Positions 1 through 21,089 of a DNA stretch of 64,000 nucleotides are shown here, one piece after another. Source of the DNA: a virus; the IMG/VR virus record IMGVR_UViG_3300030333_004588, positions 1 through 64,000 of that record. One strand, written 5' to 3'. The position numbers were made by a program, and so were the translations under genes. How positions within the stretch are numbered: the stretch's first letter is position 1; every line of letters begins with the position of its first letter. The notes below the pieces were generated by a model, which was not told where the DNA came from, searched no databases, and saw only the letters and a list, made by a program, of their open reading frames with translations.

Positions 1-63
1 CCCCAAGATGATAGTGACCATTATTAACTCAATCAATGTAAATCCTTTTTGATTTTTTATCAT
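1..63 (-). CDS. Type IV prepilin, 5' end only (runs off the window)
   Basis: Not in ORF track. Manual translation from ATG at 63 gives MIKNQKG|FTLIELIMVTIILG, a canonical class III signal peptide (G|F, E5). AGAGAGGAGA RBS just upstream. Confidence 0.9.
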   Translation of the reverse strand, partial: MIKNQKGFTLIELIMVTIILG

Positions 64-85
64 GACCAATCTCCTCTCTACTAAC

Positions 86-742
86 TTATGGTGTTAGTGT
101 TTTATGCATTTGTAATGGGTTCTCAATATCTGCCACAAGTAAGGCAGGTGCCTTTGCAGTTGTTCCACTACCACTTCCAGGTATCACAAGATAAATGTAT
201 CCACCATCCTGAAAGGGTGAGTCAATTCCTTGATTACCAAAGTTCTTCTTAAAGGCAACTGCACCATCTTCATCAAAACCAACATCTACTTGATGAACAT
301 TATCACTATCTACACTCATCCAACCACCTTGTAATGCATCTTCATCATCTACTGCCGGTGAAAACACATATACGAAATCAGTTAGGTCTGAAGTATATCC
401 AGTTATACCAATTAAAACATCTTCAAGATATGTTTCTAATGCCTCATCTGTATCAGTATCGGCAGGTAAATCAAATCCACCTACTTTTGAGTCGTATTTA
501 GATTGTCCAGGAAATCTTCCCTTACCCTCTTCAGATACTGCCTCATTATAATAGTTGTTTGCTACGGTCAGAATTTTATCAATGTTTGCCATCGTTTTCT
601 TTTCCTTGGCACCTGCACCAACACTACCAAATTTAGGGGCAGCAGTTGTCGCGAGAGTTGCCATCATTGCAGTAGTAACTGCAAATTCTGCAAGAGAGTT
701 TCCACTCCTACTTTTTATTTTTTTAATTAGGTTTATCAACAT
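86..742 (-). CDS. Type IV pilin-like / pseudopilin protein
   Basis: Basic leader, then KSRSG|NSLAEFAVTTAMMATLATTAAPKF (E5, hydrophobic helix, P22) and an amphipathic helix. Adjacent to a canonical prepilin. Confidence 0.75.
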   Translation of the reverse strand: MLINLIKKIKSRSGNSLAEFAVTTAMMATLATTAAPKFGSVGAGAKEKKTMANIDKILTVANNYYNEAVSEEGKGRFPGQSKYDSKVGGFDLPADTDTDEALETYLEDVLIGITGYTSDLTDFVYVFSPAVDDEDALQGGWMSVDSDNVHQVDVGFDEDGAVAFKKNFGNQGIDSPFQDGGYIYLVIPGSGSGTTAKAPALLVADIENPLQMHKTLTP

Positions 743-779
743 GATTTTTCTCCTTTAATTAATGTTGTTACCTATATAC

Positions 780-795
780 TACAAAAAGCATACCA
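780..795 (-). promoter_or_regulatory. Sigma54-like -24/-12 promoter upstream of the pilins
   Basis: Minus strand TGGTAT-GCTTT-TTGTA versus consensus TGGCAC-N5-TTGCW, ~40 nt upstream of the start codon. Confidence 0.45.
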
Positions 796-888
796 AACCG
801 CGTAATTTTTGAAAAATAATTTAATTTATTTTTAAGTCTGTATATATGTGAAGTTAGAGATGAGAAATTTTAAATAATATTAGGCATT

Positions 889-911
889 AAAAAACCACCG
901 AATTGGTGGTT
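889..911 (-). terminator. Intrinsic terminator
   Basis: AACCACC-AATTC-GGTGGTT hairpin running into a T tract on the minus strand. Confidence 0.6.
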
Positions 912-930
912 AATTATTTTTGTATTGAAT

Positions 931-949
931 TGTTACATTAAATGTAACA
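931..949. promoter_or_regulatory. Perfect inverted repeat, candidate activator-binding site
   Basis: TGTTACATT-A-AATGTAACA, ~140 bp upstream of the sigma54-like element. Confidence 0.4.
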
Positions 950-964
950 TTATGTGAAGTGTGG

Positions 965-1252
965 TTACACTCCTTTAAACATATCCCAAACATGTTTAAA
1001 TAATAATCCTAAAAAACCTGTTCCAATAACACCTCTCCATTTTTGAGAATCCTGTCTAAATTGTGTGTTTTGTTTTGTTTCTGCCCATAATCCCTCATGT
1101 GGATTAAATAGGTTTTCTTTGATAAACTTTAGATTTTCTTCAGTTTTGACATGTGCAGCATTCATTTCTACTTTTAAATCATCAATTGATTGTGTAATAT
1201 TATCAATTTTATTATGAATTAAGTCAAATTCTGTTCTATCTTTTTGGTTCAA
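965..1252 (-). CDS. Small coiled-coil protein with C-terminal hydrophobic segment
   Basis: ORF track; heptad-like N-terminus, C-terminal GVIGTGFLGLLF. Confidence 0.5.
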   Translation of the reverse strand: MNQKDRTEFDLIHNKIDNITQSIDDLKVEMNAAHVKTEENLKFIKENLFNPHEGLWAETKQNTQFRQDSQKWRGVIGTGFLGLLFKHVWDMFKGV

Positions 1253-1304
1253 GGTAATTCTCCATAGTTTGTATTCTATTATAAATATCTAACTTCTAAA
1301 AAAC

Positions 1305-2069
1305 TTATATGGAAAACAACTCATTAAAAAAATTATTTTTTCTACTGATTTTTGTAATTCTCTTTGTGATAAATCTATTTTTATTATTGTGTTCAATGTA
1401 GTTAAAAACTTCCATAGATTTGTTCATACATTCAATGTATTTTTCAGTAAGTATGTTGTCCATAAAATCTATCTTTTTAAATCTATCATCATCTCTTAAT
1501 ATAATTTTTAATGATTTTACTTCTTCCATGTGACTTATTACATCCCCATAACTACTTTTCCAATCAATACCCTCAATTTGTTTTGACAACAACCATTCTA
1601 CATAATAACTCCAATGTCGTTTTAGATTAACAAAATGAACTTTATTCAAATCTTTAAATTCACTAACTTGTTTTATCCTTGTATGTAAATCTATAACTGA
1701 ATGGTTATGAAAAAGAACTTTATCTTTTTCTTTTGTATAGACATCGTATAACCTATCAACTAAATCTGGTCTATTCGCAATCATATTATCATGCCATACA
1801 TGACCCTCAAAATATCCTCTCAAATCTTGGACTTGACCAGATAAAAATCTTTCCATTGGATTTCTATATATAAATACTTTTAAATAATCTTCATATTTTT
1901 CATAATCAATCTCATGTCCATAAAATTCACCTGACTTATGTCCACATGAAAAATGTTCATAATTAACATTTTTTAAATAAATGTTTCTAATGTGACTTGA
2001 ACCAAGTTTGGCACCAGTATATATCATTATTTTACTTTTAGGTATTGTAAATACTGATGCCATACTCAT
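1305..2069 (-). CDS. Sulfotransferase-family protein
   Basis: AKLGSSHIR (5'-PSB-like) and FIYRNPMERFLSG (3'-PB-like) motifs. Confidence 0.6.
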   Translation of the reverse strand: MSMASVFTIPKSKIMIYTGAKLGSSHIRNIYLKNVNYEHFSCGHKSGEFYGHEIDYEKYEDYLKVFIYRNPMERFLSGQVQDLRGYFEGHVWHDNMIANRPDLVDRLYDVYTKEKDKVLFHNHSVIDLHTRIKQVSEFKDLNKVHFVNLKRHWSYYVEWLLSKQIEGIDWKSSYGDVISHMEEVKSLKIILRDDDRFKKIDFMDNILTEKYIECMNKSMEVFNYIEHNNKNRFITKRITKISRKNNFFNELFSI

Positions 2070-2320
2070 TATTTTTTATAACTTTTCTTATAAGGTCTTC
2101 TTTTTCTTGGTTGTGGTTTACTTTTTTTAGTAACTCTAAATATCTCTTGTTTTAGTGCATTTCTTTGTGCCAGTAACTCTTCTACTCTATTATCTAATTC
2201 AATAACTTGGTCTCTTTGTCTACTATCTTTATTAATATTAACAAACCCTAATACTAATACTCCTAAACAACTACCAATCAATAATCCACATCCAAATGCA
2301 ATCCATGCCGATTCAATCAT
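2069..2320 (-). CDS. Small membrane-anchored protein
   Basis: N-terminal TM helix, coiled coil, basic tail. Confidence 0.55.
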   Translation of the reverse strand: MIESAWIAFGCGLLIGSCLGVLVLGFVNINKDSRQRDQVIELDNRVEELLAQRNALKQEIFRVTKKSKPQPRKRRPYKKSYKK

Positions 2321-2321
2321 T

Positions 2322-2543
2322 TTATTCTCCTATTATTACTACTCCTGTATTACCATCCCATGATGGTTCTACATTAAATTTTTGTTTTGAACATTCCTCT
2401 TTCACAATGTTCTTCATTTTTTCACTATTACCTGTGATAACTTTAATTGGAAAATTACCCATATTATATTGTAATATAACCCAATTTATTAATTTATCTT
2501 TTACTTCTTCGTGTTTCCAATTATGTAAATCAATTTCTACCAT
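2322..2543 (-). CDS. Stand-alone Smr-domain protein
   Basis: EIDLHN...KVITGNS...GNTGVVII matches the Smr DLHG / IxGxG / NxG pattern. Confidence 0.7.
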   Translation of the reverse strand: MVEIDLHNWKHEEVKDKLINWVILQYNMGNFPIKVITGNSEKMKNIVKEECSKQKFNVEPSWDGNTGVVIIGE

Positions 2544-2549
2544 CTTTTA

Positions 2550-2852
2550 TCATTTTGGTGGCCCTACTCGTCTTTTTCTCTCAAACAACGACATTTCATC
2601 ATCAACTATTGCCTTTTCTTCTTTCCACCAATCGTATCCTTGTGATTGTGATGATGGTTTTCTTGTAGTTGCCTCATATATTCTATCATATTCTGTTCTT
2701 GTCATAACTTTCCATAAATTACTAAAAACTTCTCTATCAGGCATCTGTTTTACACCTTGAAAATAAGTTGTTGCACCACCAATACCAACATCACTTGCAA
2801 GGTTTGCAGAAAACACAATTTCATCTTGTTTATTAACTAATACATATTCCAC
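2550..2852 (-). CDS. Hypothetical protein
   Basis: ORF track; AGGAG RBS upstream. Confidence 0.55.
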   Translation of the reverse strand: MEYVLVNKQDEIVFSANLASDVGIGGATTYFQGVKQMPDREVFSNLWKVMTRTEYDRIYEATTRKPSSQSQGYDWWKEEKAIVDDEMSLFERKRRVGPPK

Positions 2853-2862
2853 ATTATTACTC

Positions 2863-3447
2863 CTAATTTAATATTATTCCGAATGTCCTATCTTTATATT
2901 CTCCATACCAATCAGTAAAGGACACATTTACATGAACGGTATCTCCAACCATAGTTTTTACTGGCCCAAATATCGTATTTACTTCACCATATGTTTCGGG
3001 TTGTGTTGATGGGTATGATGAACCATTTACGGTTGGAACTTCAAATCCACTAAAATGTGTTACATAAGTTGTATCATAAGAGACATATTCTAAATCATCT
3101 GTTACTCCTCGTTTAACTATGTAACCAAGTGTATCACCAATTGTCCAATAGTGTGTAGAACGCCATCTTACTGGTAACCATTCCATGTCATCTCTTTCCC
3201 ACCAATCATAATCTTTACCCTCACTTGTGATATGTGCAGTCAATCGTTTTATTGATTGCCACTTATTCATATCAAGAGACATATGATAATAACCATTTTC
3301 ATCTTGTGGTAACTCTACACTCAATTCAATATTGAAGTCAGGATAATCATATTTTGTATCCTCACATCCAATAAATAATAATAAACTAATTCCTATTAGG
3401 ATGTTTTTTATTGAACTTCGTGTTTTGTTTTTTATTAATTTCATCAT
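2863..3447 (-). CDS. Putative lipoprotein
   Basis: Basic N-terminus, hydrophobic stretch and lipobox LLFIG|C. Confidence 0.65.
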   Translation of the reverse strand: MMKLIKNKTRSSIKNILIGISLLLFIGCEDTKYDYPDFNIELSVELPQDENGYYHMSLDMNKWQSIKRLTAHITSEGKDYDWWERDDMEWLPVRWRSTHYWTIGDTLGYIVKRGVTDDLEYVSYDTTYVTHFSGFEVPTVNGSSYPSTQPETYGEVNTIFGPVKTMVGDTVHVNVSFTDWYGEYKDRTFGIILN

Positions 3448-3547
3448 AACTTTTTTTCTTCCTTTTTGGTTTTATTTTTGGTTGTATTCTTTTACGGAAA
3501 GTCTCTTCTTCCAGTTCTTCCCATTCTTCCCAATCATATTTCGGCAT
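3386..3547 (-). CDS. 53-aa acidic/basic peptide (not in ORF track)
   Basis: Manual translation MPKYDWEEWEELEEETFRKRIQPKIKPKRKKKSYDEINKKQNTKFNKKHPNRN*; AGGAG RBS and a sigma70 promoter immediately upstream. Confidence 0.7.
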   Translation of the reverse strand: MPKYDWEEWEELEEETFRKRIQPKIKPKRKKKSYDEINKKQNTKFNKKHPNRN

Positions 3548-3560
3548 CTATATTACTCCT

Positions 3561-3590
3561 AATATACTAATTTTTTATTGTTAATGTCAA
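3561..3590 (-). promoter_or_regulatory. Sigma70-type (early) promoter
   Basis: TTGACA-N18-TATATT preceded by an A tract; same architecture at 23977-24006 and 36402-36431. Confidence 0.7.
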
Positions 3591-3598
3591 GCACTTTT

Positions 3599-3865
3599 TT
3601 AATTTCTTTTACCACACATGGTTCTTATTTTTAATTTCTCAATAACATCAAGAAATTCCTCAACACTATATACTTTTCCTTTCTCATCAAGAATAGTATA
3701 ATTCTCTATTGATTCAGGACTTATATTCATCATGTTATTCAGTGCAACCCAACCTTGTTCAGGATAGAATTTACCCAAACTTTCTTCTCCCAATATATTA
3801 CTACTGAACATTAGGTTTTCTTTTGATTCATTTTTATGTATTATAAAGTATGTCATGAATATCAT
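3599..3865 (-). CDS. Hypothetical protein
   Basis: ORF track; overlaps neighbour in operon fashion. Confidence 0.5.
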   Translation of the reverse strand: MIFMTYFIIHKNESKENLMFSSNILGEESLGKFYPEQGWVALNNMMNISPESIENYTILDEKGKVYSVEEFLDVIEKLKIRTMCGKRN

Positions 3866-4520
3866 TTGCTACTATTTCGTAACCCTTTGTTGATGGATGT
3901 GCTCTTCCTTTGATAAATTTCTCTTCATTCTTTCTACTTTGTATATCCAATCCTCTTTCAAATAATGTAGGTTCTTTCTTATCTAATAACATATTTGTAA
4001 TAGAACTATTTGTATATAAATAGTTTTTCTCATCAACAAAATCAGGTTTTTTATAACTCTCTACCGTATTTACAAACAAATAACCTTTAACATTTGGTGT
4101 ATTATCAAGTAAGTGTTTTACCTTTAACATCCAACATTTATATATTGTATTAAAATACTCCTCATCATAACAATAAATTAAATAGTCTTTCCATAATTCA
4201 TTATTTTTTGTATCTGTAAGATTAGGATGGTCATACTTATCCTCTCTTAATATATTTCTTCCCCATGAAGATGCAAAATCTAAAAATGGTAAGTTTTCCC
4301 TTAAAAAAGAAGTAACACCTACAACACAAAAACTCTCATCAACAAATGGATATTGTTCTATACTTGATAATATTTCTGTATTATTTGAACCATTATAACC
4401 ATGATTAGTTGTATTCCAATTTTTTTCTTTTAAAAAGTAATCAATGTTCATTTTTCTATCATTATCGTAATCTGCACATGACCCATAAATAAAACTATCA
4501 CCAAACAAATCAATTATCAT
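3834..4520 (-). CDS. SGNH/GDSL hydrolase-like protein
   Basis: FGDSF block I, GxNG block II, C-terminal HPSTKGY. Confidence 0.7.
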   Translation of the reverse strand: MIIDLFGDSFIYGSCADYDNDRKMNIDYFLKEKNWNTTNHGYNGSNNTEILSSIEQYPFVDESFCVVGVTSFLRENLPFLDFASSWGRNILREDKYDHPNLTDTKNNELWKDYLIYCYDEEYFNTIYKCWMLKVKHLLDNTPNVKGYLFVNTVESYKKPDFVDEKNYLYTNSSITNMLLDKKEPTLFERGLDIQSRKNEEKFIKGRAHPSTKGYEIVANDIHDILYNT

Positions 4521-5700
4521 TTTTAATTAACTCCTCTTCTGAAGTTTGTAGATTAGTAATTCTAATTTTTAATATACCTAACTCAAAAGAACCAAAGTCT
4601 CCACTATCGTTAATTATTTCAGGTAACTTCATAATGTATTGAAAATTTTCATCGTTTAATCTTTCACCATCAACTCTAACAACAACACCATTTTTAGGAT
4701 ATGCCCTATCACGATGAACTCTTCTTCTTAATGAGTAATCAGTTCTTGGTTGTTCATTCTTTATATACTCTTGTAGATAACCACCATCTGGAACAAATAT
4801 ATTATTACACCATGGTTCACAATTAGATAAGATACTATAATCACAATAATTCTCAATCACAATACCAATATCATATTTAGGTGAAATGATTGGTTTCATA
4901 TGTTCATCATGTTGAACTACACTTCCCCATTTTCTGATAAAGTTTCTCATGTTTTTAGTGGTAGTCTCAATCCATTCAGGACTATCTTTTCCAACTCCAC
5001 CTCCAGACATTGGGTTAAATCTACTACCACGACAAGTCATATGATATACAAATCCTTGCCAAGTCTGTATAAATTTTGTTCCATTTAAATGTAGTCTATT
5101 AAAGATATCACTATCTTCTTTTGATTGTGGTCTGAATAATTTATCGTGACCACCTATTTTTTGAAAATCTTCTTTATAGATTGCCCATGGTGCAAATACT
5201 CCCTCGGTGTATTTATCTTCTGAATATTCCCTATCATTTTCTAACCAATCCATTAATTCTTGTTCCTTAAAATTATCAGGTTCTATTCCAAAATCTTGTA
5301 ATATTTTCTCTGGGCCATCAGGATGTAATGGTGGTTCTATTCTTGTAAGTGATACAACTTTACCTGGTTCTAATAAATTATCTATCTCTACATCTGCATT
5401 TGGACACAAATACATATCAGAATGAAAGAACATAACTCTATCATTAGTTGCATATTCATTTACTAATTTATCATATAGTATTGTAAGACCTTCTCTTTCA
5501 GGGCCTTTGTTTACATGAAGTTTAATATTTTTATCTCTCTTCATCCAAACTAATATATGTTCTAATGTTCCATCTGTTGAGGCATCATCTGCAAAACATA
5601 TTTCATGTTCTACTGATGAGTTTTTACGAATACTTTCGTAACACCATTTCAAATAAGTTAAATTGTTTCTACTTGGTATTATAAAACTAATCGGTTTCAT
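4510..5700 (-). CDS. Glycosyltransferase family 2
   Basis: ISFIIPSRN...DDASTDGT...HSD...IGGHD...EDSD. Confidence 0.85.
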   Translation of the reverse strand: MKPISFIIPSRNNLTYLKWCYESIRKNSSVEHEICFADDASTDGTLEHILVWMKRDKNIKLHVNKGPEREGLTILYDKLVNEYATNDRVMFFHSDMYLCPNADVEIDNLLEPGKVVSLTRIEPPLHPDGPEKILQDFGIEPDNFKEQELMDWLENDREYSEDKYTEGVFAPWAIYKEDFQKIGGHDKLFRPQSKEDSDIFNRLHLNGTKFIQTWQGFVYHMTCRGSRFNPMSGGGVGKDSPEWIETTTKNMRNFIRKWGSVVQHDEHMKPIISPKYDIGIVIENYCDYSILSNCEPWCNNIFVPDGGYLQEYIKNEQPRTDYSLRRRVHRDRAYPKNGVVVRVDGERLNDENFQYIMKLPEIINDSGDFGSFELGILKIRITNLQTSEEELIKNDN

Positions 5701-6700
5701 GTTGTTCCATCCACTCTCTTAAATGTTCTAATCGTTTCTCTTCACTTGGGAATGCTCCTTTATTACATTTTCTACACATTCTAAGTTTATCTCTATGTCC
5801 TTTTTTTAGTGTCTCTCTGTAATGAGTATATGAATCATTAATCCATACATCTTCAATTCTTTCATTCAATACATTACCATGTATCACTTTATATTCCCAA
5901 TCACAACAACATAACAAGGCATCCCCGTTCCATTTGATATACATTTGTGAACTTGGAAAATGACAATCTTTTTGTGGAACTGGCATATCAGGATTCACAT
6001 TTGTTAAACCACCACGATTCCAAAATGTAAATGGGCCGAAGTGACTATCCTTTGACATACCCTTTTTCATTTGTGTCACATTGTAATTTGATGATAATGT
6101 AATGAAACATTTACCATTAACACCTTGGAATGGTTCCAATTGTTTTAGTAATTTAGTGGCATATTTATCATCAAAATAATCATCTATTTGTATTGAAGTT
6201 AGTCCTGCATCAATCATGTCACCAAGAAACTCTGTGGTTAATCCTGTTCCATTTGTATTAATTTTTATTGGATTTTTTGGTAAATATTTTCTTGTTATTC
6301 CAATTATCTCTACCATTCTATCTTTATCCATTAATGGTTCATTCATAAGATAAGGTGAAACTCTACCAGTAAAATTTAAGTCTGCCAAGTTCTTTACTAT
6401 TTTGGTATAGTTTTCAATAGACATTATATTATAAGGAATACCTTTTTTCTTTCCCTCTAACCTATCCCATATCATATAATGATTAGGACAAAAGTCACAT
6501 TTCAAATTACAAAATTCTATTGTTTGAATTTGTATCTGACCAAATAGTGGAAATCCTTCTATTTTTGGTGGTTCATAACCTAATGATAAGTGTGGATTAA
6601 CTGCATCATGTGTTGCAACATCTTCAGATGGAACACCAATTAATATATCTCTAATTGGATAAAACTCTATGTGTTTGTTTGGTTCCAATGTTTTAACCAC
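5687..6700 (-). CDS. Radical SAM protein with C-terminal SPASM/twitch domain
   Basis: CNLKCDFC; C-terminal CxxP...LCCCD...GN...W...CRKC. Confidence 0.85.
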   Translation of the reverse strand: MVKTLEPNKHIEFYPIRDILIGVPSEDVATHDAVNPHLSLGYEPPKIEGFPLFGQIQIQTIEFCNLKCDFCPNHYMIWDRLEGKKKGIPYNIMSIENYTKIVKNLADLNFTGRVSPYLMNEPLMDKDRMVEIIGITRKYLPKNPIKINTNGTGLTTEFLGDMIDAGLTSIQIDDYFDDKYATKLLKQLEPFQGVNGKCFITLSSNYNVTQMKKGMSKDSHFGPFTFWNRGGLTNVNPDMPVPQKDCHFPSSQMYIKWNGDALLCCCDWEYKVIHGNVLNERIEDVWINDSYTHYRETLKKGHRDKLRMCRKCNKGAFPSEEKRLEHLREWMEQHETD

Positions 6701-7593
6701 GCCTCCTCTGTATAATAATCATTAAATCTTTTCAATGCAGTCTCACTACATAATTTATAAAACTTTTCATCCTTTAGTTTCTTACCCAATTCAACTGCCT
6801 TATCCAAATCACCAACATCTACTGAAGTTAATGGATGAATTAACTCTTGTGTATCTAATCCCTTGTATCCAATACATGGTATTCCATGAAATCCACAATT
6901 CATTGCAAATGTCCCTGCGGCATGTGTTCTCATTAAATGAACACCTATATTATATTGTGATAAACAATTTATCCATTCTCTCCAACTCATATAAGGTAGA
7001 TAATTTATATCCTCAATCAAACTTTCTTGTTCTTGTTTCCTACCCATTGATGGTGCAGATATAGGGTCTCCAATCTCTCTTGCCACCATATAAGAATCAA
7101 ATCCACCATACCAATTAACAAAGTTACCACCAATCATTGTTGCATCTCCCCATTCATTTCGTGGAATTAATCCTTCAGGAATCATCAAACTTCTCATCAC
7201 TCTTACATCTTTACAACCTAATCCTAAATAATAATTTACATCACTTTCATTATGACAATATACCCAATCGGCATCTAATAATGTATTATAATAATGAAAT
7301 TGATTTTCAATAGTATAGTCTTGGAAATACCAATGTGGGCCTTCTTGCATTACTGCAACCTTATCACAATATTGTTTCATTTGATTTAAATCTACATTAG
7401 GATTATTTTTTGGTATAATAACAATACCCAAGTCAAAGTGTTCATTTGTGAAAGGGGCTTCTCTTGGACTTTGACCTATCGGACACCACTCTGCATCTAA
7501 TGCAACACTCCAACCAAATTCTGTTCTGGCATTTTCAAAATCTCTTGGAACTTTACCTCTAATTTGACTCTCTGAAAAAAATACTATATTCAT
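6667..7593 (-). CDS. Putative GT-B fold glycosyltransferase
   Basis: C-terminal GTFAMNCGFHGIPCIG resembles the GT-B ExxxxGxP region; gene context. Confidence 0.55.
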   Translation of the reverse strand: MNIVFFSESQIRGKVPRDFENARTEFGWSVALDAEWCPIGQSPREAPFTNEHFDLGIVIIPKNNPNVDLNQMKQYCDKVAVMQEGPHWYFQDYTIENQFHYYNTLLDADWVYCHNESDVNYYLGLGCKDVRVMRSLMIPEGLIPRNEWGDATMIGGNFVNWYGGFDSYMVAREIGDPISAPSMGRKQEQESLIEDINYLPYMSWREWINCLSQYNIGVHLMRTHAAGTFAMNCGFHGIPCIGYKGLDTQELIHPLTSVDVGDLDKAVELGKKLKDEKFYKLCSETALKRFNDYYTEEAWLKHWNQTNT

Positions 7594-8264
7594 AACTCTG
7601 ATATTGTTTTGAACTCTATTGTGAATTGTAATAATAAATAGTCTAAAATTCTCTGAAAATAGTTAAAATTTTCTTCATTCCATGTATTATCATTCCAATC
7701 TCCCTGTATGTGTGACTGAAACATAAATGTGTTACCATATAACTTTACATCATCACTTTGATGAATACCATCTGCACCCCAAAATAATTTAGTGTCAAAT
7801 CGTATACCTTGATTTATTTGTTCATGTTGTGCAACCCATTCAAAGTTTTCACTAACTACCTCTGCAGCCTCTTGTGATATTCCCCAACCTGGTGCTCTAA
7901 ATCCTTTTGGTTTGTGTCCACATTGTTCCCATAGGTTTAAACTATCTCTAACTCTATCTACTGCCTCATCTTTATTTAATTCTAAAAATTCTTGTTCACC
8001 TATTTCTTCTTTGGTGTATTTTTTGACATCGTGATAGTGGCCGTGATTACTCAACTCTACCCAATCAAATTGTTTCCAATACGAAACCCAATCTTTTGTT
8101 AATGGATATTCATTATGATAATAACTCGGACAAAATAAATTAAATTTAACTCCATATTTTTCATTGAGTTCTTTTAGATACTCTACTTGAATATCACCCT
8201 CACAACCCCAACCTTTTTGTGGATGTAAATCATCTATTGCAACTATTAAATTAGTGTTTACCAT
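7590..8264 (-). CDS. Polysaccharide deacetylase-like (NodB/DUF2334)
   Basis: IDD, HGHYH and GFRAPGW motifs. Confidence 0.75.
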   Translation of the reverse strand: MVNTNLIVAIDDLHPQKGWGCEGDIQVEYLKELNEKYGVKFNLFCPSYYHNEYPLTKDWVSYWKQFDWVELSNHGHYHDVKKYTKEEIGEQEFLELNKDEAVDRVRDSLNLWEQCGHKPKGFRAPGWGISQEAAEVVSENFEWVAQHEQINQGIRFDTKLFWGADGIHQSDDVKLYGNTFMFQSHIQGDWNDNTWNEENFNYFQRILDYLLLQFTIEFKTISEL

Positions 8265-8463
8265 ATCTTATCCTATTCCAAACTCTTTCGTGAAAATAAA
8301 ACATTATCATTCCTGTTACATTCATAATTACTGCATTCCAAAATGGTATCTCTGTAAAACTCATTGATAATACTAACCATGAATTACTAAATGCAATCAA
8401 TCTCCAACTAATTGATTTACTTGTAGACCTACTCCTTGTCTCTTTGAATACTTTCATACTCAT
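8251..8463 (-). CDS. DUF2061-like small membrane protein
   Basis: RSTSKSISWR...FYFHERVW pattern. Confidence 0.7.
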   Translation of the reverse strand: MSMKVFKETRSRSTSKSISWRLIAFSNSWLVLSMSFTEIPFWNAVIMNVTGMIMFYFHERVWNRIRYGKH

Positions 8464-9502
8464 TATAAAACTCCAAATTATATTTCTTTGACAAAACTTT
8501 TACTTCATCATTAAAAACTTTTATTTGTTCCTTACTTGGTAATAATTTATCATAAGAATACGATGGTATCATTACTCTAAAATCTAAAAAATTAAATCCC
8601 TTTTCTTCTGCAAGTCTAAAAATATCTCTAACTTCAACAATATTTTCATTTGTAAGAATTACGACATACTTTAAATTTGGTTTAGAACCTACTTTTTGAC
8701 TATTAATATAATCAACTCTTTCCCATAAGTGTTTCCAATCTTTTGGTTTTAATCTACGAGAGTCACAATATGTTTTTTCAGTTCCTGCAGATATATTAAT
8801 TTCAAGTCTGTCTACCTTTACATCTACAATTTCTTTTAATTGTTTGTCTGTTAGTCTTGATAGATTAGTAAATACCTTTAAGTAAAATCCTTTTTCTTTT
8901 GTGTATTTAATCATCTCTGTCATTTTAGGAACTAAAAATGGTTCACCACCACCACTAATTGATATCCATCTACAACCACCCATAGAATATAAATCATCAA
9001 TAATATTTTTATATATATCAAACTCAATAAAATGTTTAGACCACTCTTTCCAACCATCCCATTGTTTACCATCGTCTAACATATCTTTTGACCACGACCA
9101 ACAAAAATTACATCTATGATTACAAGGATTACCAACTTCAAATTGAAATTCTGTTGGTGCCGACATTGGTTTACCACTCAATATTCCTTGTCTAACTTCT
9201 GTAGGGAAATATTTCTCTATATTCTCCCAACTATCTAAATTATCTTGAATAACATTTTCTACGGTATAATGTGGACAATGAACACAAGAGTCATTCCACT
9301 CTTCATTCATTTCAGATAAATTATTTTTTAAGTTTTTTCTTAACTTAAAATATTTTTTAGAATTCCAAAATTTTTTAAATGAACCATCTTCACCATAATC
9401 ACCTATACTTGGAACTGAACCACAACATAACCAATATTTTTTATCAGGCGTTATCTTTCCAAATCTATAACCTATATTACACTTTGGAAGTAATTCGTTC
9501 AT
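8429..9502 (-). CDS. Radical SAM protein with N-terminal SPASM/twitch-like domain
   Basis: N-terminal C...LCC...FWNS...CVHC precedes CNHRCNFC and GGGEP. Confidence 0.85.
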   Translation of the reverse strand: MNELLPKCNIGYRFGKITPDKKYWLCCGSVPSIGDYGEDGSFKKFWNSKKYFKLRKNLKNNLSEMNEEWNDSCVHCPHYTVENVIQDNLDSWENIEKYFPTEVRQGILSGKPMSAPTEFQFEVGNPCNHRCNFCWSWSKDMLDDGKQWDGWKEWSKHFIEFDIYKNIIDDLYSMGGCRWISISGGGEPFLVPKMTEMIKYTKEKGFYLKVFTNLSRLTDKQLKEIVDVKVDRLEINISAGTEKTYCDSRRLKPKDWKHLWERVDYINSQKVGSKPNLKYVVILTNENIVEVRDIFRLAEEKGFNFLDFRVMIPSYSYDKLLPSKEQIKVFNDEVKVLSKKYNLEFYNEYESIQRDKE

Positions 9503-9961
9503 TTACCAACTTACTTCCCAATCTTTAAACTCTGATGCAATACAATCTATCTTGTAGTCTTTTCTACCACCAACTCGTTCCATAATTTTGTTCACGGCAG
9601 TGTTTCTTATACCATTAAGTCCATGTGTTAACATTAAATTATCGGAACCTCTTTCACCTTTCCTAACCATTGACTCATTATACCAAATATGAGCATTCAT
9701 TTGTGATAAAACTATAACTGCTCTGATGAATTCACCATCAATTTTACCACCCTTTTCTTTAAGTATTAATTCAATATCATGAACCATATCTTTCATCTCT
9801 TTTGCATAGTTATCTTTATTCTCAGGTATAAATACCTCTTTCAACTGATGAATACTTAATCTATCAATTAATTCACCTAATGTTGGTAACCACTTTCTAC
9901 TTTTTGACTTCATCTTTAAACTCCTCATATGTATTAAATTTAACTTGTCCTTGGTCTTCAA
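9503..9961 (-). CDS. Hypothetical protein (DUF6165-like N-terminus)
   Basis: TLGELIDRLSI motif; true start may be an internal Met. Confidence 0.45.
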   Translation of the reverse strand: MKTKDKLNLIHMRSLKMKSKSRKWLPTLGELIDRLSIHQLKEVFIPENKDNYAKEMKDMVHDIELILKEKGGKIDGEFIRAVIVLSQMNAHIWYNESMVRKGERGSDNLMLTHGLNGIRNTAVNKIMERVGGRKDYKIDCIASEFKDWEVSW

Positions 9962-10982
9962 ATCTCTTAATGTTCTTACGACTCATTTTAGTAATTATTT
10001 GAAACCAATTATTATCTCTTCTTTTTTCGTGTGTCATTTTATCTTGGTCTTCATCTTTGACATAAAGTCTTTTTCTTGGATGATTTCTATTATGAACCTT
10101 TAGTATATTCTTAATAACAAATTGTCTATAATCACTACCCATCATTTTCAAACATGATATTAAAAAACTTGTATCATCACCAACCATAGAAACTGCAGGT
10201 GGTAAGTTAACTCCACCTCTCACTAAATCTGATGACATCACTAAACAACTACCATCAAATTTTGGTTCTGTAATCAATTGAACATCAAGTTCTTTTGTTT
10301 TGGAATTAACTTCTTCCATTTCTTCTTGTGTCATAGTGTATCTAATAGACCAAGGTGATGTTAATGCCTTTCTTGTATCTTCCTCTGTATCCATATCATA
10401 ATATGGTTTATTAGTAAACTCAGGGTGTTCTAAAACTCTCCAAGTCTCATCCCACATTTTTCTAAGTGCAAATGTTAATGTATATCTGTAGATTTCTTGA
10501 GAGTCTGCATATTCTTTTACACCCTCTAATACATGAAAGAATTCTCTTGGTAATAAACAATCACTTTCACCCCACACTAAATAGTCACAAGGCATACACC
10601 ATTTTAAATTGAAATCTCTTCTATAGTCTGCAATACAATATGGTTTATCTGCCTGATAAACATTACTTTTTACCAACACTCCCCACTTACTAACTTCAGA
10701 ACATTTTTCATTAAATCTTTTGATTAATTCTTTTTTAGTAATTACATCATCATCTACTGATTCAAAGAATTCTGATATATTAAAGAATAAATCCACAATT
10801 ATATTTTTGGGATTTTCTACTATTTCAAGTGCTCTTTTTATTGAATTTAGATACTCATCTAACATCTCAATCTCATAAAACATTACATGACAACCTATTG
10901 CATATTTATTTTTTAAGTTCATCAAACAACTCCATTTGGTTTTTATCTTTTGGATATGGATTAAACCATTCACCATATTCAT
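9897..10982 (-). CDS. Putative GT-A glycosyltransferase
   Basis: DYLVWGESDCL (xxD motif), GDD; gene context. Confidence 0.5.
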   Translation of the reverse strand: MNMVNGLIHIQKIKTKWSCLMNLKNKYAIGCHVMFYEIEMLDEYLNSIKRALEIVENPKNIIVDLFFNISEFFESVDDDVITKKELIKRFNEKCSEVSKWGVLVKSNVYQADKPYCIADYRRDFNLKWCMPCDYLVWGESDCLLPREFFHVLEGVKEYADSQEIYRYTLTFALRKMWDETWRVLEHPEFTNKPYYDMDTEEDTRKALTSPWSIRYTMTQEEMEEVNSKTKELDVQLITEPKFDGSCLVMSSDLVRGGVNLPPAVSMVGDDTSFLISCLKMMGSDYRQFVIKNILKVHNRNHPRKRLYVKDEDQDKMTHEKRRDNNWFQIITKMSRKNIKRFEDQGQVKFNTYEEFKDEVKK

Positions 10983-11160
10983 CTACCCACAATTCCCATC
11001 CACGAAGATTTTCTCTTTTACTTCTCTTTTCATCATACATGAGATTTAATTGTATTGTCTCTAACATATCAGGTGTCAATCTATCACTACACTCTAAAAC
11101 TATTGGTAGTTTACTATGTCTAATTTTCTTCATAGTTTTCCTTAATTTCATTCCATACAT
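10906..11160 (-). CDS. Hypothetical protein
   Basis: ORF track. Confidence 0.45.
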   Translation of the reverse strand: MYGMKLRKTMKKIRHSKLPIVLECSDRLTPDMLETIQLNLMYDEKRSKRENLRGWELWVDEYGEWFNPYPKDKNQMELFDELKK

Positions 11161-11872
11161 TCATCATTAATTGATTTCTCATTTTCTTTTCAAATCCATT
11201 AAAGTGCCAAACATAACCAACTTCCCACATAGGACATAGATTACTTTGTAATACACCTCTTAAATGTAATTGTGATAAGTTAAATCTTTCATCAAGATAG
11301 TTTAATTTATGTTCACTTGCCCTTATCATATAATTAATTGGTGTTTGGTCTGACCCTTTTTTCAATGTTTCGTGTTGTCTTCTTCTTAACTCATCTTCAT
11401 TTTCAAGATAAAAATCCATAACACCTTTACACCAATCTTTGTGTTTTTTACTCATTACAATAAATCCACAATTAAAATAATCTGTCCAATCAAACTTTGT
11501 ATCTGGCCAGAAGTCTTGATATCCTTTTATACTATTGTGTGTCCATTCAATATTAAACTTATCCATCACTGCACTAAACTCACCATCAGTTTGTTCAAAG
11601 AAATTAGGACAATCCCAATGAACCATTGTGTCTACATCCACTAATGCAACTTGGTCATATTCTATCTCATTAGATTCAAGTATTTCATGAACCCACCATC
11701 TTTGCCATGTTGGTTTCATAATTGATTTATCTCTTATCTCTGTATCAAGAACAAATAATTCTACATTATTTTTCTTACACCAATAGTCCCATGATTTAAA
11801 ACACCATTCCTTGTAATCAAGATAGTCTGGTGCCCCATCCATACATGTCATAAATACTACATTATTCTTCAA
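11120..11872 (-). CDS. Glycosyltransferase (GT8/GT34-like)
   Basis: LVDVDT, YFNCGF, SDQTPINY and WHFNG motifs. Confidence 0.8.
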   Translation of the reverse strand: MKNNVVFMTCMDGAPDYLDYKEWCFKSWDYWCKKNNVELFVLDTEIRDKSIMKPTWQRWWVHEILESNEIEYDQVALVDVDTMVHWDCPNFFEQTDGEFSAVMDKFNIEWTHNSIKGYQDFWPDTKFDWTDYFNCGFIVMSKKHKDWCKGVMDFYLENEDELRRRQHETLKKGSDQTPINYMIRASEHKLNYLDERFNLSQLHLRGVLQSNLCPMWEVGYVWHFNGFEKKMRNQLMMNVWNEIKENYEEN

Positions 11873-12113
11873 TTAAACCACTCCATTTTTTTAGTTTTTC
11901 TCTTTTTATATCTGACCTTAAATCTACATCATCCCAACTGATTAAGTCATATTCATGTAGTAAATCAACCATACACATAACATCACCGACTTCTTCAGTT
12001 AGTTTTTCGTTATCGTAATACTTATCACATCTGATTGCCTTACTACATTCTTGAATTAATTCACCACACTCTTCCATAGTGATTGTTAATAGTTCTTGTA
12101 ATTTATCCTTCAT
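11862..12113 (-). CDS. MazG-like nucleotide pyrophosphohydrolase
   Basis: MEECGELIQ...EEVGDV. Confidence 0.8.
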   Translation of the reverse strand: MKDKLQELLTITMEECGELIQECSKAIRCDKYYDNEKLTEEVGDVMCMVDLLHEYDLISWDDVDLRSDIKREKLKKWSGLIEE

Positions 12114-12999
12114 TAGTCCCTCTTACACCCTCAATATAATCTAATAAATCTATTGTTGGATTCCAACCCAATAGTTCTTTTGCCTTAGTATCTGTACAAA
12201 GTGTTTCTTTTACTTCACCTGGTCTTTTTGGTATGTAAGTATATCCCCAATCAAATGATTGTGCAACAACATTAATTGAATAATTTTCTCCTCTACCCAA
12301 TTCAAATATTTGTCCATTTACTTTATATTTGTTTGTATCTAATACTAATGCATCACCACATTTAACTAACCCATCTACAATATCATATACATGAGTAAAG
12401 TCTCTTCTCTGTTCACCATCACCTGTAATAGTTAATTCATCTCCATTTTTATATTGTGTTTCAAATATACCAATTACAGTACAATATTCACCCTCTGTTA
12501 ATTGATGAGGCCCATATACATTATAAAATCTACATATTGCCATTGGTAAATCAAATAGTTTATTATACATTTGAATAACTTCTTCACCTTGCCACTTTGT
12601 AAATGTGTATGGATTTTTATATACACCACCATGAAAACTACTTGACCCTGCATAAACTATTGGGATATCATCTTCTTTATTTCTTACCCATTCTAATAAA
12701 TTCAATGTTCCAAGAACATTTGCCTCAAAAGTTATTGCAGGAAACTCAAATGATGGTTGTATCCTTGGTAATGCAGCTAAATGATAAATTAAATCAGGTT
12801 TTTCTATAAAGAAATCAAAGTCAACTGCATCCCTTAAATCTACATTAAAGTATGTTACATTTTTATGGTCAATTTCATTTTCTTCTTTACCTGTTGAATA
12901 ATTATCTAAACTAACTACTTTGTGTCCATCGTCCAATAATCTCTTTATCAGATTTGTTCCAACAAATCCTGCACCTCCTGTGACTAATATTTTCATCAT
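12103..12999 (-). CDS. NAD-dependent nucleotide-sugar epimerase/dehydratase
   Basis: GGAGFVG, YxxxK (YTFTK), RFYNVYGP, RDFTHV. Confidence 0.9.
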   Translation of the reverse strand: MMKILVTGGAGFVGTNLIKRLLDDGHKVVSLDNYSTGKEENEIDHKNVTYFNVDLRDAVDFDFFIEKPDLIYHLAALPRIQPSFEFPAITFEANVLGTLNLLEWVRNKEDDIPIVYAGSSSFHGGVYKNPYTFTKWQGEEVIQMYNKLFDLPMAICRFYNVYGPHQLTEGEYCTVIGIFETQYKNGDELTITGDGEQRRDFTHVYDIVDGLVKCGDALVLDTNKYKVNGQIFELGRGENYSINVVAQSFDWGYTYIPKRPGEVKETLCTDTKAKELLGWNPTIDLLDYIEGVRGTNEG

Positions 13000-13008
13000 C
13001 TTTTTCTC

Positions 13009-13689
13009 CTATATTTTGTAAGTCTCAAATTTTGTTCCCTCTAATCTTAAATTAATAAAAGGATTTAAAGAACATATATTAACTTCATGAAAGTTTAATA
13101 ATTGTTTTAATGCAATTGTTTCTCTTTCCATGTTGTTTAAAAATCCTTTTATACCATCCCAATTACTTGCAGATGTCCAATCTTTTTCTACATATTCATG
13201 ATAATACATTTTACCATCAATCTCTCCACCATCATGTCCACATAATATTATATTTTTTGCTCCCATATAGTATGCAATGTGAACTGCAGTGGTCACGGTT
13301 GAACGACTAACAATAATTTCTTCATCAATGTCAAGTTCCATTAGTTCCATGTCAAAATCTTTTTTTCTTGGATTATGAGTAAACATATATGAATTAGGAT
13401 TATTACAATTATTCACTCCTTTGTCTTCATAACCTTTATAATACTGACTATAAATTAATGGTATATCTTTTTCTTTTAATTCTTCTACCAATCTTGTAAA
13501 TCTTGGTTCTTCATTACAATCTTTTACAACTACATAATCACATTCAAAGTATCTGAAAATATCATTTACACCAAGAACTATTTTATTATCAAAAAAACTT
13601 TTGTCAATATGATTTAATGATGGGCCACCACTAACAACATAAATGTCTTTGTCTTTATGAATATTTTTTAATGAACCGAAATCTTTCAT
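13009..13689 (-). CDS. Maf/DUF115 (MptE-like) putative ulosonate transferase
   Basis: VVSGGPSL...GVN...AYYMGAKNIILCGHD. Confidence 0.7.
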   Translation of the reverse strand: MKDFGSLKNIHKDKDIYVVSGGPSLNHIDKSFFDNKIVLGVNDIFRYFECDYVVVKDCNEEPRFTRLVEELKEKDIPLIYSQYYKGYEDKGVNNCNNPNSYMFTHNPRKKDFDMELMELDIDEEIIVSRSTVTTAVHIAYYMGAKNIILCGHDGGEIDGKMYYHEYVEKDWTSASNWDGIKGFLNNMERETIALKQLLNFHEVNICSLNPFINLRLEGTKFETYKI

Positions 13690-20829: not shown

Positions 20830-20840
20830 TTATAACCTCT

Positions 20841-21035: not shown

Positions 21036-21089
21036 AATAATCTCTTTGTTTTAATTATCTATATATACATATATATATAAATATGTTAA

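What the first reader, a model, noticed from the sequence alone, without database searches (positions are those of the whole stretch)
1..950. Phage-encoded type IV pilin cluster with its own sigma54-like promoter and palindromic upstream site
Seen: two consecutive prepilin-type genes. One is canonical (G|FTLIEL, missed by the ORF track) and one is a variant (G|NSLAEF). They are insulated by a terminator and preceded by TGGTAT-N5-TTGTA plus a perfect 19-bp palindrome ~140 bp upstream. Known: bacterial major pilin genes are often sigma54/PilR-driven, and pili are common phage receptors. Inference: the phage expresses pilins through host pilus regulation, to remodel or jam the pilus (superinfection exclusion) or to alter adhesion.
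Basis: partly seen in the sequence, partly recalled or inferred. Interest (0 to 1): 0.78.

Follow-up and report, generated by a model that had tools for sequence, protein, structure and literature searches.

The report
Phage pilin genes with host sigma-54 switch
An uncultured T4-like ocean phage carries two pilus-subunit genes copied from its probable host phylum, Marinimicrobia (SAR406), together with that host's sigma-54 promoter and activator sites, so infected cells probably put phage-made subunits into their own pili.

Summary
Gene A (742..86, minus strand, 218 aa) starts G|NSLAEF. Gene B starts G|FTLIEL; only 21 codons are present (63..1) because the contig ends there. Upstream lie a terminator hairpin (893-911), TGGTAT-N5-TTGTA (795..780) and a perfect 19-bp palindrome (931-949).

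About 80 related phage contigs carry the same cassette between phage genes. In distinct upstream regions, 56 carry the -24/-12 box and 52 of these have two or more TGTWACA-type sites. Gene A's only cellular relatives are in Marinimicrobia genomes. There, A-type genes follow pilD, pilB, a sigma-54 activator gene and pilC. They carry canonical TGGCA[CT]-N5-TTGC promoters and the same upstream sites. Four of five host genomes searched encode RpoN.

Five phage contigs show no PilB, PilC, PilD, RpoN or activator. A confident model of gene A (pLDDT 87) matches only pilins and pseudopilins at the top of an unbiased structure search, at modest Z.

The functional reading, pilus re-surfacing for superinfection exclusion, is inferred. 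It has a 2026 laboratory precedent (P-FimU and P-PilA). This scan has already reported the same cassette on other phage genomes, so this is a further instance.

The parts
1..63 (-). 5' end (21 codons) of gene B, a canonical prepilin (MIKNQKG|FTLIEL...), truncated by the contig end. The full gene is 144 aa in the near-identical contig L003:6680-7114.
86..742 (-). Gene A, a 218-aa A-type prepilin. It has a basic leader, G14 at -1, Asn at +1, Glu at +5, and Pro22-Lys23-Phe24 of the mature protein. It is the ortholog of the Marinimicrobia pilin paralog that sits directly before the B-type gene.
749..755 (-). Ribosome-binding site AAGGAGA, in a predicted 5' UTR of about 27 nt.
   Evidence: the sequence AGGAGAAC is conserved in relatives
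780..795 (-). Sigma-54-type promoter TGGTAT-N5-TTGTA. GG is at 794/793 and GT at 782/781. The predicted start of transcription is near 769 (inferred, not mapped).
893..911 (-). Intrinsic-terminator-like hairpin that ends the upstream 95-aa gene and insulates the cassette.
   Evidence: relatives keep a hairpin of differing sequence here
931..949 (.). Perfect 19-bp palindrome made of two TGTWACA half-sites. It is the candidate binding site (UAS) for the host pilus-locus sigma-54 activator. A third GTTACA hexamer lies at 964-969.

Best explanation
This is a host-derived type IV pilin cassette in a T4-like phage whose probable host is a Marinimicrobia (SAR406) bacterium.

Proposed mechanism:
1. 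The host's RNA polymerase with sigma-54 binds TGGTAT-N5-TTGTA.
2. It is opened by the host's pilus-locus enhancer-binding protein, bound at the TGTTACA/TGTAACA palindrome about 140 bp upstream.
3. Genes A and B are transcribed together.
4. Both prepilins insert in the inner membrane, are cut after the conserved Gly by host PilD, and are polymerised by host PilB/PilC.

Gene A keeps the host's assembly helix (89% identity) but has an almost entirely different exposed middle part (19% identity). The pilus of an infected cell would therefore be re-surfaced rather than blocked. The most likely benefit is that other pilus-binding phages, or the phage's own progeny, no longer adsorb.

Shown here: gene identity, host origin, conservation of the control elements, the host's possession of the needed factors, and the absence of those factors from the phage contigs searched.

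Inferred: use of the promoter, processing, assembly and the exclusion benefit.

I put identity plus regulation at about 0.85 and the exclusion benefit at about 0.4.
For: Cassette in phages:
- About 80 phage contigs carry gene A followed by 1-3 G|FTLIEL prepilins.
- It is flanked by phage genes: polynucleotide kinase, gp32-like SSB and UvsX on one side, the window's genes on the other.

Pilin identity:
- PF07963 and TIGR02532 hits for gene B.
- The gene A profile hits Geopilin (E = 0.001) and MshA (E = 0.009) over the leader and helix.
- G14 and E19 are invariant in 87 phage and host sequences.
- The model has pLDDT 87 and pTM 0.76, with a 56-residue N-terminal helix and four strands.
- The top 19 of 48,161 PDB representatives are all pilins or pseudopilins, at Z 4.0-5.6.

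Host origin:
- Relatives are found only in Marinimicrobia-type genomes, with the same A-then-B gene order.
- Phage A groups with the host paralog next to B; SH-aLRT 98.

Regulation:
- Canonical sigma-54 boxes precede 72 of 85 host A-type genes with a full 260-nt upstream window.
- TGTWACA sites are the top enriched word in both phage and host upstream regions.
- RpoN is present in 4 of 5 host genomes.
- Host loci read pilD-pilB-activator-pilC-A.
- No PilB, PilC, PilD, RpoN or true activator was found in five phage contigs.

Region-wise identity is 89/60/19/56%.

Contigs from four metatranscriptome libraries match genes A and B. One bridges the A-B gap with no differences.

Precedent: P-FimU and P-PilA (PMC12952977).
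Against: - The -12 element is GT, not the near-universal GC, and the -24 box is GGT, not GGC. Some 54 of 56 phage copies share this, so the promoter may be weak or read differently.
- No transcription start is mapped. RNA-library contigs cannot show strand, start or level, and DNA may be present in such libraries.
- Gene A has no Pfam, NCBIfam or PHROG hit.
- Foldseek found nothing significant, and the structural Z scores are modest.
- The phage contigs are only 40-72% complete, so missing machinery is not proven absent.
- The host assignment rests on gene similarity alone. A donor need not be the host.
- No data bear on adsorption or exclusion.
Confidence: 0.6

Rival explanations
1. Pilus maintenance or boost. 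The phage supplies fresh subunits so that the host pilus keeps working after host gene expression is shut down, for attachment to particles, DNA or nutrient uptake, or motility. Changing its surface for exclusion is not the point.
For: E5, P22 and the whole assembly helix are kept. Many relatives also carry 2-3 further prepilins, which suggests building rather than merely decorating a fibre. The host's own control region is retained.
Against: The exposed middle of gene A is only 19% identical to host orthologs and sits on a long branch. A plain replacement part would not need that.
Confidence: 0.25
2. Jamming. The phage pilins act as dominant-negative subunits that stall assembly or titrate PilD. 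Pili are removed, so no further phage can adsorb and energy is saved.
For: Asn instead of Phe at +1 and an unusual Thr/Ala-rich helix in gene A. The paper on P-PilA raises this idea for truncated phage PilA.
Against: Asn or Gln at +1 and the same helix are the host's own normal state in dozens of Marinimicrobia genes. The proteins are full length with a conserved, confidently folded globular part.
Confidence: 0.1
3. The conserved upstream boxes are not a sigma-54 promoter in the phage. They would be a phage-specific promoter or operator, for example one read by a phage factor at the adjacent TATATAGGTA. The resemblance to sigma-54 would then be a decaying relic of the captured host DNA.
For: Both conserved C's are T in 54 of 56 phage copies. 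TATATAGGTA follows the -12 box in most phages.
Against: GG, TG and the exact 5-bp spacing are invariant. A relic would not be kept across proteins only 46% identical. Of 67 host promoters, 18 also use TTGT. Some host paralogs have the same ATATATAGGTAAC after the box. TATATAGG is not a recurrent motif before other genes of this phage: 3 copies in 64 kb. The upstream sites are conserved with it.
Confidence: 0.08
4. Assembly artefact: a host fragment wrongly joined to the end of a phage contig.
For: The cassette lies at the very end of the contig.
Against: A 99.66%-identical contig runs on through the cassette for 5.9 kb into phage replication genes. Dozens of other phage contigs hold the cassette internally. 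GC is an even 30%. Fourteen DNA runs from 13 studies each hold at least 78% of the sampled words of window 1-3000.
Confidence: 0.02

Closest known systems
P-FimU and P-PilA: phage- and prophage-encoded type IV pilus subunits (Sztanko et al., Cell Rep 2026, PMC12952977)
   Same: A phage carries a copy of a host pilus structural subunit and no assembly machinery. P-FimU is incorporated into the pilus without loss of function and blocks phages that bind the pilus. PilA-like genes were also noted in virulent phages.
   Different: Here the carrier is a T4-like phage of an uncultured marine phylum. The cassette pairs a major-type subunit with a canonical prepilin (up to four genes in relatives). It carries the host's sigma-54 promoter and activator sites. 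No function has been tested.
RpoN plus PilS/PilR control of major pilin genes (Pseudomonas aeruginosa pilA, Myxococcus, Geobacter; from general knowledge)
   Same: A -24/-12 promoter with correct spacing before the major pilin gene, upstream activator sites, and an activator with a sigma-54 interaction domain and a Fis-type HTH.
   Different: The control region sits in a virulent phage genome. The -12 is GT. The host activator is encoded between pilB and pilC and showed no receiver domain at E <= 1e-5, so it is not shown to be a PilR ortholog.
Marinimicrobia (SAR406) chromosomal pilus locus: pilD-pilB-activator-pilC, A-type pilin array, B-type pilin, four further prepilins
   Same: Gene order A then B. 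The first 36 residues of mature gene A (15-50) are 89% identical on average. Same promoter type and same TGTWACA sites.
   Different: The phage keeps only A and B, has a divergent exposed region in A, places the sites upstream of a terminator, and has T for C in both promoter boxes.
PHROG 3433 'pilin' (moron/auxiliary gene category)
   Same: Gene B matches it at E = 8.8e-9 over the N-terminal segment.
   Different: Gene A matches no PHROG. No cultured phage in the 50,697-record collection encodes a relative of gene A.

Membership tests
Type IV pilin / class III signal peptide proteins (PF07963, TIGR02532) | Short basic leader ending in Gly, Glu at +5, and about 20 hydrophobic residues forming the N-terminal half of a long helix | tested here: met
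   Gene B scores 31.1 bits on PF07963 (cut-off 21.2) and 28.8 on TIGR02532. In gene A, G14 and E19 are invariant in 87 sequences, and P22-K23-F24 of the mature protein matches gene B's P22-R23-Y24. The gene A profile hits Geopilin and MshA over this segment. Gene A itself gets no PF07963 hit.
Type IV pilin / class III signal peptide proteins (PF07963, TIGR02532) | Phe (or Met/Leu) at +1 of the mature protein | tested here: not met
   Gene A has Asn at +1; relatives have Asn or Gln. Gene B has Phe. The host's own A-type pilins share Asn/Gln, so this is a lineage trait and not a defect.
Type IV pilin / class III signal peptide proteins (PF07963, TIGR02532) | Pilin fold: a roughly 53-residue N-terminal helix packed on a four-stranded antiparallel sheet | tested here: met
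   The AF2 model has pLDDT 87.2, helix 17-72 and strands 119-125, 182-187, 200-205, 213-216. Ranks 1-19 of an all-against-48,161 search are pilins or pseudopilins, with Z 4.0-5.6, rmsd 2.2-4.6 A and 67-124 residues aligned. Z is modest and Foldseek found nothing. Gene B was not modelled.
Type IV pilin / class III signal peptide proteins (PF07963, TIGR02532) | Encoded with, or dependent on, a prepilin peptidase, an assembly ATPase and a platform protein | tested here: met
   Host orthologs lie directly after pilD, pilB, an activator gene and pilC. The phage contigs have none of these, so dependence on the host is inferred.
Type IV pilin / class III signal peptide proteins (PF07963, TIGR02532) | Cleavage and N-methylation by the prepilin peptidase, and assembly into a fibre | not testable with these tools
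   Needs protein work.
Sigma-54 (RpoN) dependent, enhancer-activated promoter | GG at -24 and TG at -13/-14 with exactly 5 bp between TGGYAY and TTGY | tested here: met
   Window 795..780. Invariant in 56 distinct phage copies and 67 host copies. Present in 65 of 77 and 72 of 85 upstream windows, against 0.5% and 1.2% of random windows.
Sigma-54 (RpoN) dependent, enhancer-activated promoter | C at -12 (GC dinucleotide) | tested here: not met
   The window has GT. So do 54 of 56 phage copies and 18 of 67 host copies. Two phage lineages have GC.
Sigma-54 (RpoN) dependent, enhancer-activated promoter | Sigma-54 and an enhancer-binding ATPase available in the cell | tested here: met
   PF04552 hits at E 1e-48 to 1e-50 in 4 of 5 Marinimicrobia genomes. 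The pilus-locus proteins score 218-221 bits on PF00158 and carry HTH_8. Neither factor was found in the phage contigs.
Sigma-54 (RpoN) dependent, enhancer-activated promoter | Upstream activator sites about 80-200 bp from the promoter | tested here: met
   TGTWACA/TGWTACA sites lie at -110 to -185 in phages and -50 to -160 in hosts. Two or more sites occur in 52 of 56 and 40 of 67 regions, against about 1% of random windows. Binding itself is not tested.
Sigma-54 (RpoN) dependent, enhancer-activated promoter | Transcription start about 12 nt after the -12 element, dependent on RpoN | not testable with these tools
   Only contigs of RNA libraries were available. They end at 703 and cannot show starts.
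Phage-encoded pilus subunits that give superinfection exclusion (P-FimU / P-PilA type) | Phage-borne homolog of a host pilus structural subunit, without assembly genes | tested here: met
Phage-encoded pilus subunits that give superinfection exclusion (P-FimU / P-PilA type) | Incorporation into the pilus and a block of adsorption by pilus-binding phages | not testable with these tools
   Only indirect: a conserved assembly helix with a divergent exposed region.

The most novel reading that the evidence does not exclude
A virulent T4-like phage has wired a captured structural operon to its host's enhancer-dependent sigma-54 pathway. Phage pilin output would then be decided by the host's pilus sensor-activator, not by the phage's own early, middle or late programme. 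Sigma-54 holoenzyme would give the phage a transcription channel that escapes its takeover of sigma-70. That would be the first enhancer-dependent promoter shown to work in a lytic phage. The cassette would also serve as a sequence marker tying an abundant uncultured phage group to SAR406.
Probability: 0.3. Interest if true: 0.8.

Novelty: new variant of a known kind. Interest (0 to 1): 0.6.

Why it matters
Phage copies of pilus subunits were shown only in 2026 to act as a defence against competing phages, and only in Pseudomonas prophages.

Here the same idea appears in an abundant family of large lytic ocean phages. Nearly 3,000 relatives of gene A at E <= 0.001 are on record. The cassette comes with a multi-gene layout and the host's own sigma-54 promoter and activator sites.

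It gives three testable things:
- a probable host (SAR406/Marinimicrobia, an uncultured and globally abundant phylum) for a phage group with no cultured member;
- the first sketch of how that phylum controls its pili (promoter, activator, binding motif);
- a case in which a lytic phage leaves the timing of one of its operons to a host signalling protein.

Tried and rejected
- **Family searches for gene A.** Pfam, NCBIfam and PHROGs gave nothing even at E <= 10.
- **Cultured phages.** tblastn against 50,697 phage records gave no relative of gene A and only short N-terminal hits for gene B.
- **Foldseek against PDB.** No significant match for either model.
- **Sigma54_activat hits in three phage contigs.** These are CobS/MoxR-type AAA+ proteins (AAA_5 plus CbbQ_C), not activators. 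The sub-threshold T2SSE hits are the same gene.
- **TGTTACA as a general early-promoter -35 box of this phage.** Rejected: it occurs once in intergenic DNA in 64 kb.
- **TATATAGGTA or TATAAATA as a recurrent late promoter explaining the site.** Not supported.
- **An IHF-like site in the conserved AACAATAT..AACAC motif.** The match to the consensus recalled from memory is poor, and the motif is in only about a third of phages and absent from hosts.
- **RNA libraries.** Contigs from four studies cover only 1-703 of window 1-3000. The lack of cover beyond 703 is not evidence, and no start, strand or level can be read.
- **Rfam on 1-1400.** Nothing.
- **The 35-nt match between 711-745 and 54830-54866.** It is A/T-rich coding sequence, taken as chance.
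- **No tRNA genes** were found to help with the host.
- **Literature searches.** No paper was found on Marinimicrobia phage pilins or on sigma-54 promoters in phage genomes. Labonte 2015 reports Marinimicrobia-associated viruses but does not mention pili.
Full report
**What is in the sequence**

The window is the first 64 kb of a 74,113-bp linear IMG/VR virus record that CheckV estimates as 40% complete. All genes lie on the minus strand and GC is an even 30%. The phage is T4-like. It has a family B DNA polymerase (PHROG 262, E = 5e-181), a DnaB-like helicase and a ribonucleotide reductase. Its best cultured relative is Microcystis phage Mel-JY01, at 44.6% polymerase identity.

Gene A occupies 742..86 and encodes 218 aa. 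It begins with a basic leader ending in Gly14, followed by NSLAEFAVTTAMMATLATTAAPKF. Twenty-two bases after its stop, a second frame starts at 63 and reads MIKNQKG|FTLIELIMVTIILG before running off the record. This fragment passes the curated cut-offs of PF07963 (31.1 against 21.2 bits) and TIGR02532 (28.8 against 16.3).

Upstream of gene A, reading the minus strand, the order is:
- the stop of a 95-aa gene at 965;
- a perfect 19-bp palindrome TGTTACATT-A-AATGTAACA at 949..931;
- a hairpin with a T run at 911..893;
- A/T-rich DNA;
- TGGTATGCTTTTTGTA at 795..780;
- GTATATAGGTAAC;
- a strong ribosome-binding site and the ATG.

**Not an assembly artefact**

The protein search in IMG/VR returned 90 relatives of gene A, of which 80 loci were kept (46-100% identity). 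L003 aligns with window 1-6742 at 99.66% identity without a gap. It continues for 5.9 kb beyond the window's end. There it holds the complete 144-aa gene B, two small exported or membrane proteins, a polynucleotide kinase-phosphatase, a gp32-like single-strand DNA-binding protein, UvsX and an exonuclease.

Fourteen DNA runs from 13 studies each hold at least 78% of the sampled words of window 1-3000. The cassette is thus a normal internal part of this phage genome, and gene B is cut only by the contig end.

**A conserved cassette**

In the related contigs, gene A (G|N or Q, S or T, then LAEF) is followed by one to three canonical G|F-T-L-I/V-E-L prepilins of 130-160 aa wherever the contig extends far enough. 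Representatives of each type pass PF07963. The large protein collection holds 2,973 relatives of gene A at E <= 0.001, mostly from ocean metagenomes including Tara. No cultured phage record encodes one.

**Is gene A a pilin?**

Library HMMs do not see it. Four other lines of evidence do.

1. The mature N-terminus matches the type IVa pattern position for position: Glu5, Pro22, Lys/Arg23, Phe/Tyr24, as in gene B. Gly(-1) and Glu5 are invariant across 87 phage and host sequences.
2. A profile of 29 phage sequences searched against all PDB sequences returns four hits. The top three are pilins: Geopilin at E = 0.001 and 0.007, and MshA at E = 0.009. They align over the leader and helix. Gene B hits 17 solved pilins down to E = 1.5e-8.
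3. With the deeper alignment, AlphaFold2 gives pLDDT 87.2 and pTM 0.76. The model has an unbroken helix at 17-72, a short helix, and a four-stranded sheet. Foldseek finds nothing significant. An exhaustive alignment against 48,161 PDB representatives puts pilins or type II secretion pseudopilins at every one of ranks 1-19. These include PilJ, EpsG, XcpW, PilA4, PilE, EpsI, a Shewanella pilin, CofA-type, PilV, GspI, MshA, K122-4 and PulG. Z is 4.0-5.6, rmsd 2.2-4.6 A, and 67-124 residues align. The Z values are modest, so I rely on the family-pure ranking and not on any single score.
4. The genomic context of the cellular homologs, described next.

**Cellular relatives and the likely host**

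I scanned one genome for each of 185,579 species with two conserved peptides of gene A. This found 45 loci at 35-65% identity. They come overwhelmingly from Candidatus Marinimicrobia/Neomarinimicrobiota (SAR406) MAGs and single-cell genomes, or from unclassified marine MAGs. A few labels probably reflect binning errors.

These loci hold one to four tandem A-type genes. They are followed by a B-type gene whose N-terminus is identical to the phage's gene B, and then by four more prepilins.

In a single-cell genome (L087) and a MAG (L114), the A-type gene follows directly after four genes:
- a prepilin peptidase (A24_N_bact plus Peptidase_A24);
- a PilB-type ATPase (T2SSE, 424-429 bits, plus MshEN);
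- a sigma-54 enhancer-binding protein (Sigma54_activat, 218-221 bits, plus HTH_8);
- a PilC-type platform protein (T2SSF).

A maximum-likelihood tree of 87 mature sequences places 25 of the 26 phage proteins with the 13 host copies that sit immediately before the B-type gene; the 26th (L082) branches beside them, and the starred branch holding all 39 has SH-aLRT 98. The other host paralogs fall outside this group. The window's sequence lies in a 17-member, all-phage clade on a long stem (support 100, length 1.17).

The phage cassette is therefore the A-then-B segment of the Marinimicrobia pilus locus. This makes Marinimicrobia the probable host. That remains an inference from gene origin.

**The promoter**

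Anchored on the G codon, 65 of 77 phage upstream windows contain TGG[CT]A[CT]-N5-TTG[CT][ATC], against 15 of 2,989 random windows from the same loci. For host A-type genes the figures are 72 of 85 against 19 of 1,533.

The window's box is one of only two exact matches to the degenerate pattern in 64 kb, and the other lies inside a coding frame.

| Set | -24 box | -12 box |
|---|---|---|
| Host (67 distinct copies) | TGGCA[CT] in 61 | TTGC in 49, TTGT in 18 |
| Phage (56 distinct copies) | TGGTA[CT] in 54 | TTGTA in 54 |

Two phage lineages (L023, L058) have the textbook TGGCAT-N5-TTGCA. GG, TG and the spacing never vary.

Four of five host genomes searched encode the sigma-54 DNA-binding domain at E about 1e-49. 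The control genomes ring only where sigma-54 is known. I conclude that this is a real sigma-54 promoter inherited with the gene. The systematic C-to-T change at both boxes is unexplained. It could be drift in a 30%-GC genome or deliberate weakening.

By the usual geometry, transcription should start near 769. That gives a 27-nt leader. This is inferred.

**The palindrome**

An unbiased count of 7-mers in the 200 nt upstream of the -24 box gave TGTAACA/TGTTACA as the word present in the largest share of regions in both sets, and the top-ranked group of enriched words in each set are TGTAACA or overlapping variants of it. It occurs in 93% of phage regions against 5.9% of background, and in 73% of host regions against 7.4%.

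Counting the close variants TGWTACA as well:
- two or more sites occur in 52 of 56 phage regions against 37 of 2,975 random windows;
- two or more sites occur in 40 of 67 host regions against 16 of 1,456 random windows.

Sites often form inverted pairs with spacers of 1-7 or more bases. They lie 110-185 bp before the -24 box in phages and 50-160 bp before it in hosts.

The motif is not a general signal of this phage, since it has one intergenic copy in 64 kb. The window's 19-bp palindrome is thus one instance of a site family shared by phage and host. It is best read as the binding site of the pilus-locus activator, whose Fis-type HTH suits an inverted repeat. Binding is not shown.

In phages the sites lie upstream of the terminator hairpin. 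In hosts they usually lie downstream of it.

**What the phage lacks**

Five phage records of 74-132 kb (40-72% complete) showed none of the following:
- prepilin peptidase;
- PilB above cut-off;
- PilC;
- RpoN;
- a true activator; the weak PF00158 hits are a CobS/MoxR-type AAA+ protein.

Expression, processing and assembly must therefore use host parts, as far as incomplete genomes can show.

**Expression**

A search with window 1-3000 found six RNA-library runs holding 5-8% of its words. When four of them, from four studies, were laid on the stretch, every matching contig fell within 1-703, that is, on genes A and B. Several have no differences, and one covers 1-209 across the A-B gap.

This shows that sequence of this cassette is present in metatranscriptome libraries, and it is compatible with co-transcription. 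It does not show strand, start or level. The lack of cover upstream is not evidence.

**Mechanism and purpose**

Compared with its 13 host orthologs, gene A shows this pattern:

| Residues | Mean identity to host orthologs |
|---|---|
| 15-50 (assembly helix) | 89% |
| 51-90 | 60% |
| 91-170 | 19% |
| 171-218 | 56% |

Gene B is 39-51% identical to host B-type genes.

A subunit that keeps the polymerisation interface but replaces the exposed surface fits incorporation with re-surfacing better than it fits blocking.

The laboratory precedent is P-FimU. These are prophage copies of a minor pilin that enter the Pseudomonas pilus, leave its function intact and stop tip-binding phages from adsorbing. 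The same paper lists PilA-like genes in Xylella prophages and in several virulent phages, and it suggests the same role (PMC12952977).

I therefore favour superinfection exclusion, or protection of progeny from adsorbing to doomed cells, at about 0.4. Maintaining pilus function comes next at about 0.25, and jamming at about 0.1.

**Relation to earlier work in this scan**

I reached the Marinimicrobia origin and the promoter comparison first. I then found that follow-up agents had reported the same cassette, host origin and sigma-54 control region on other phage genomes. Their notes gave me the Sztanko reference, which I read myself. This report is an independent confirmation on a further genome of the same phage family. 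It is not a first sighting.

**Verdict**

The functional interpretation is plausible but untested. This is a new variant of a recently described kind, phage-encoded pilus subunits. It is distinguished by its carrier (lytic T4-like ocean phages), its probable host (SAR406), its multi-gene form and its co-captured enhancer-dependent promoter.

Noticed in passing
window 780-795 compared with L003-L130: Both conserved cytosines of the sigma-54 boxes are T in 54 of 56 phage copies (TGGTAY, TTGTA). The corresponding figures in host copies are only 6 of 67 and 18 of 67. This could be drift in an AT-rich genome or a deliberately weakened promoter; it is unexplained.
   Followed up: partly
L101:3145-4854 (host), and window 3834-23580: In a Marinimicrobia MAG, an O-antigen-ligase-like gene (Wzy_C plus Wzy_C_2) lies directly before the pilin array. 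This is the family of pilin O-glycosyltransferases such as PilO/PglL. A link through phage-directed pilin glycosylation is possible but untested.
   Followed up: no
phage loci, about 45-55 bp upstream of the -24 box (window about 835-852): A second conserved motif (AACAATAT..AACAC, or CATATATACAGAC in the window) is present in about a third of phage upstream regions at a fixed distance, and is absent from host regions. Its role is unknown.
   Followed up: partly
L093 (PAYZ01000004.1) and L117: Contigs with a typical Marinimicrobia pilin locus are filed under a 'Methanobacteriota archaeon' MAG and a 'Gammaproteobacteria' MAG. These are probably binning errors.
   Followed up: no
L111:7956-16617 and L112:7956-15626: Some Marinimicrobia chromosomes hold very long arrays of 12-15 tandem prepilin genes with duplicated A-plus-B blocks. 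This suggests rapid turnover of pilus subunits in the host.
   Followed up: no
L087:5132-6589 and L114:5181-6644: The host pilus-locus sigma-54 activator is encoded between pilB and pilC. Its first ~140 residues gave no Pfam domain at E <= 1e-5 (1e-4 for L114), so no receiver domain was seen and its input signal is unknown.
   Followed up: partly
window 711-745 and 54830-54866: A 35-nt stretch at the start of gene A is 86% identical to a stretch inside the 931-aa gene. It is A/T-rich and lysine-coding, and is taken as chance.
   Followed up: partly
L003:6996-7861 (beyond the window's end): Directly after gene B, the near-identical contig encodes two small proteins with an N-terminal signal or membrane segment (153 and 135 aa) and no family match. 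They may belong to the cassette.
   Followed up: no
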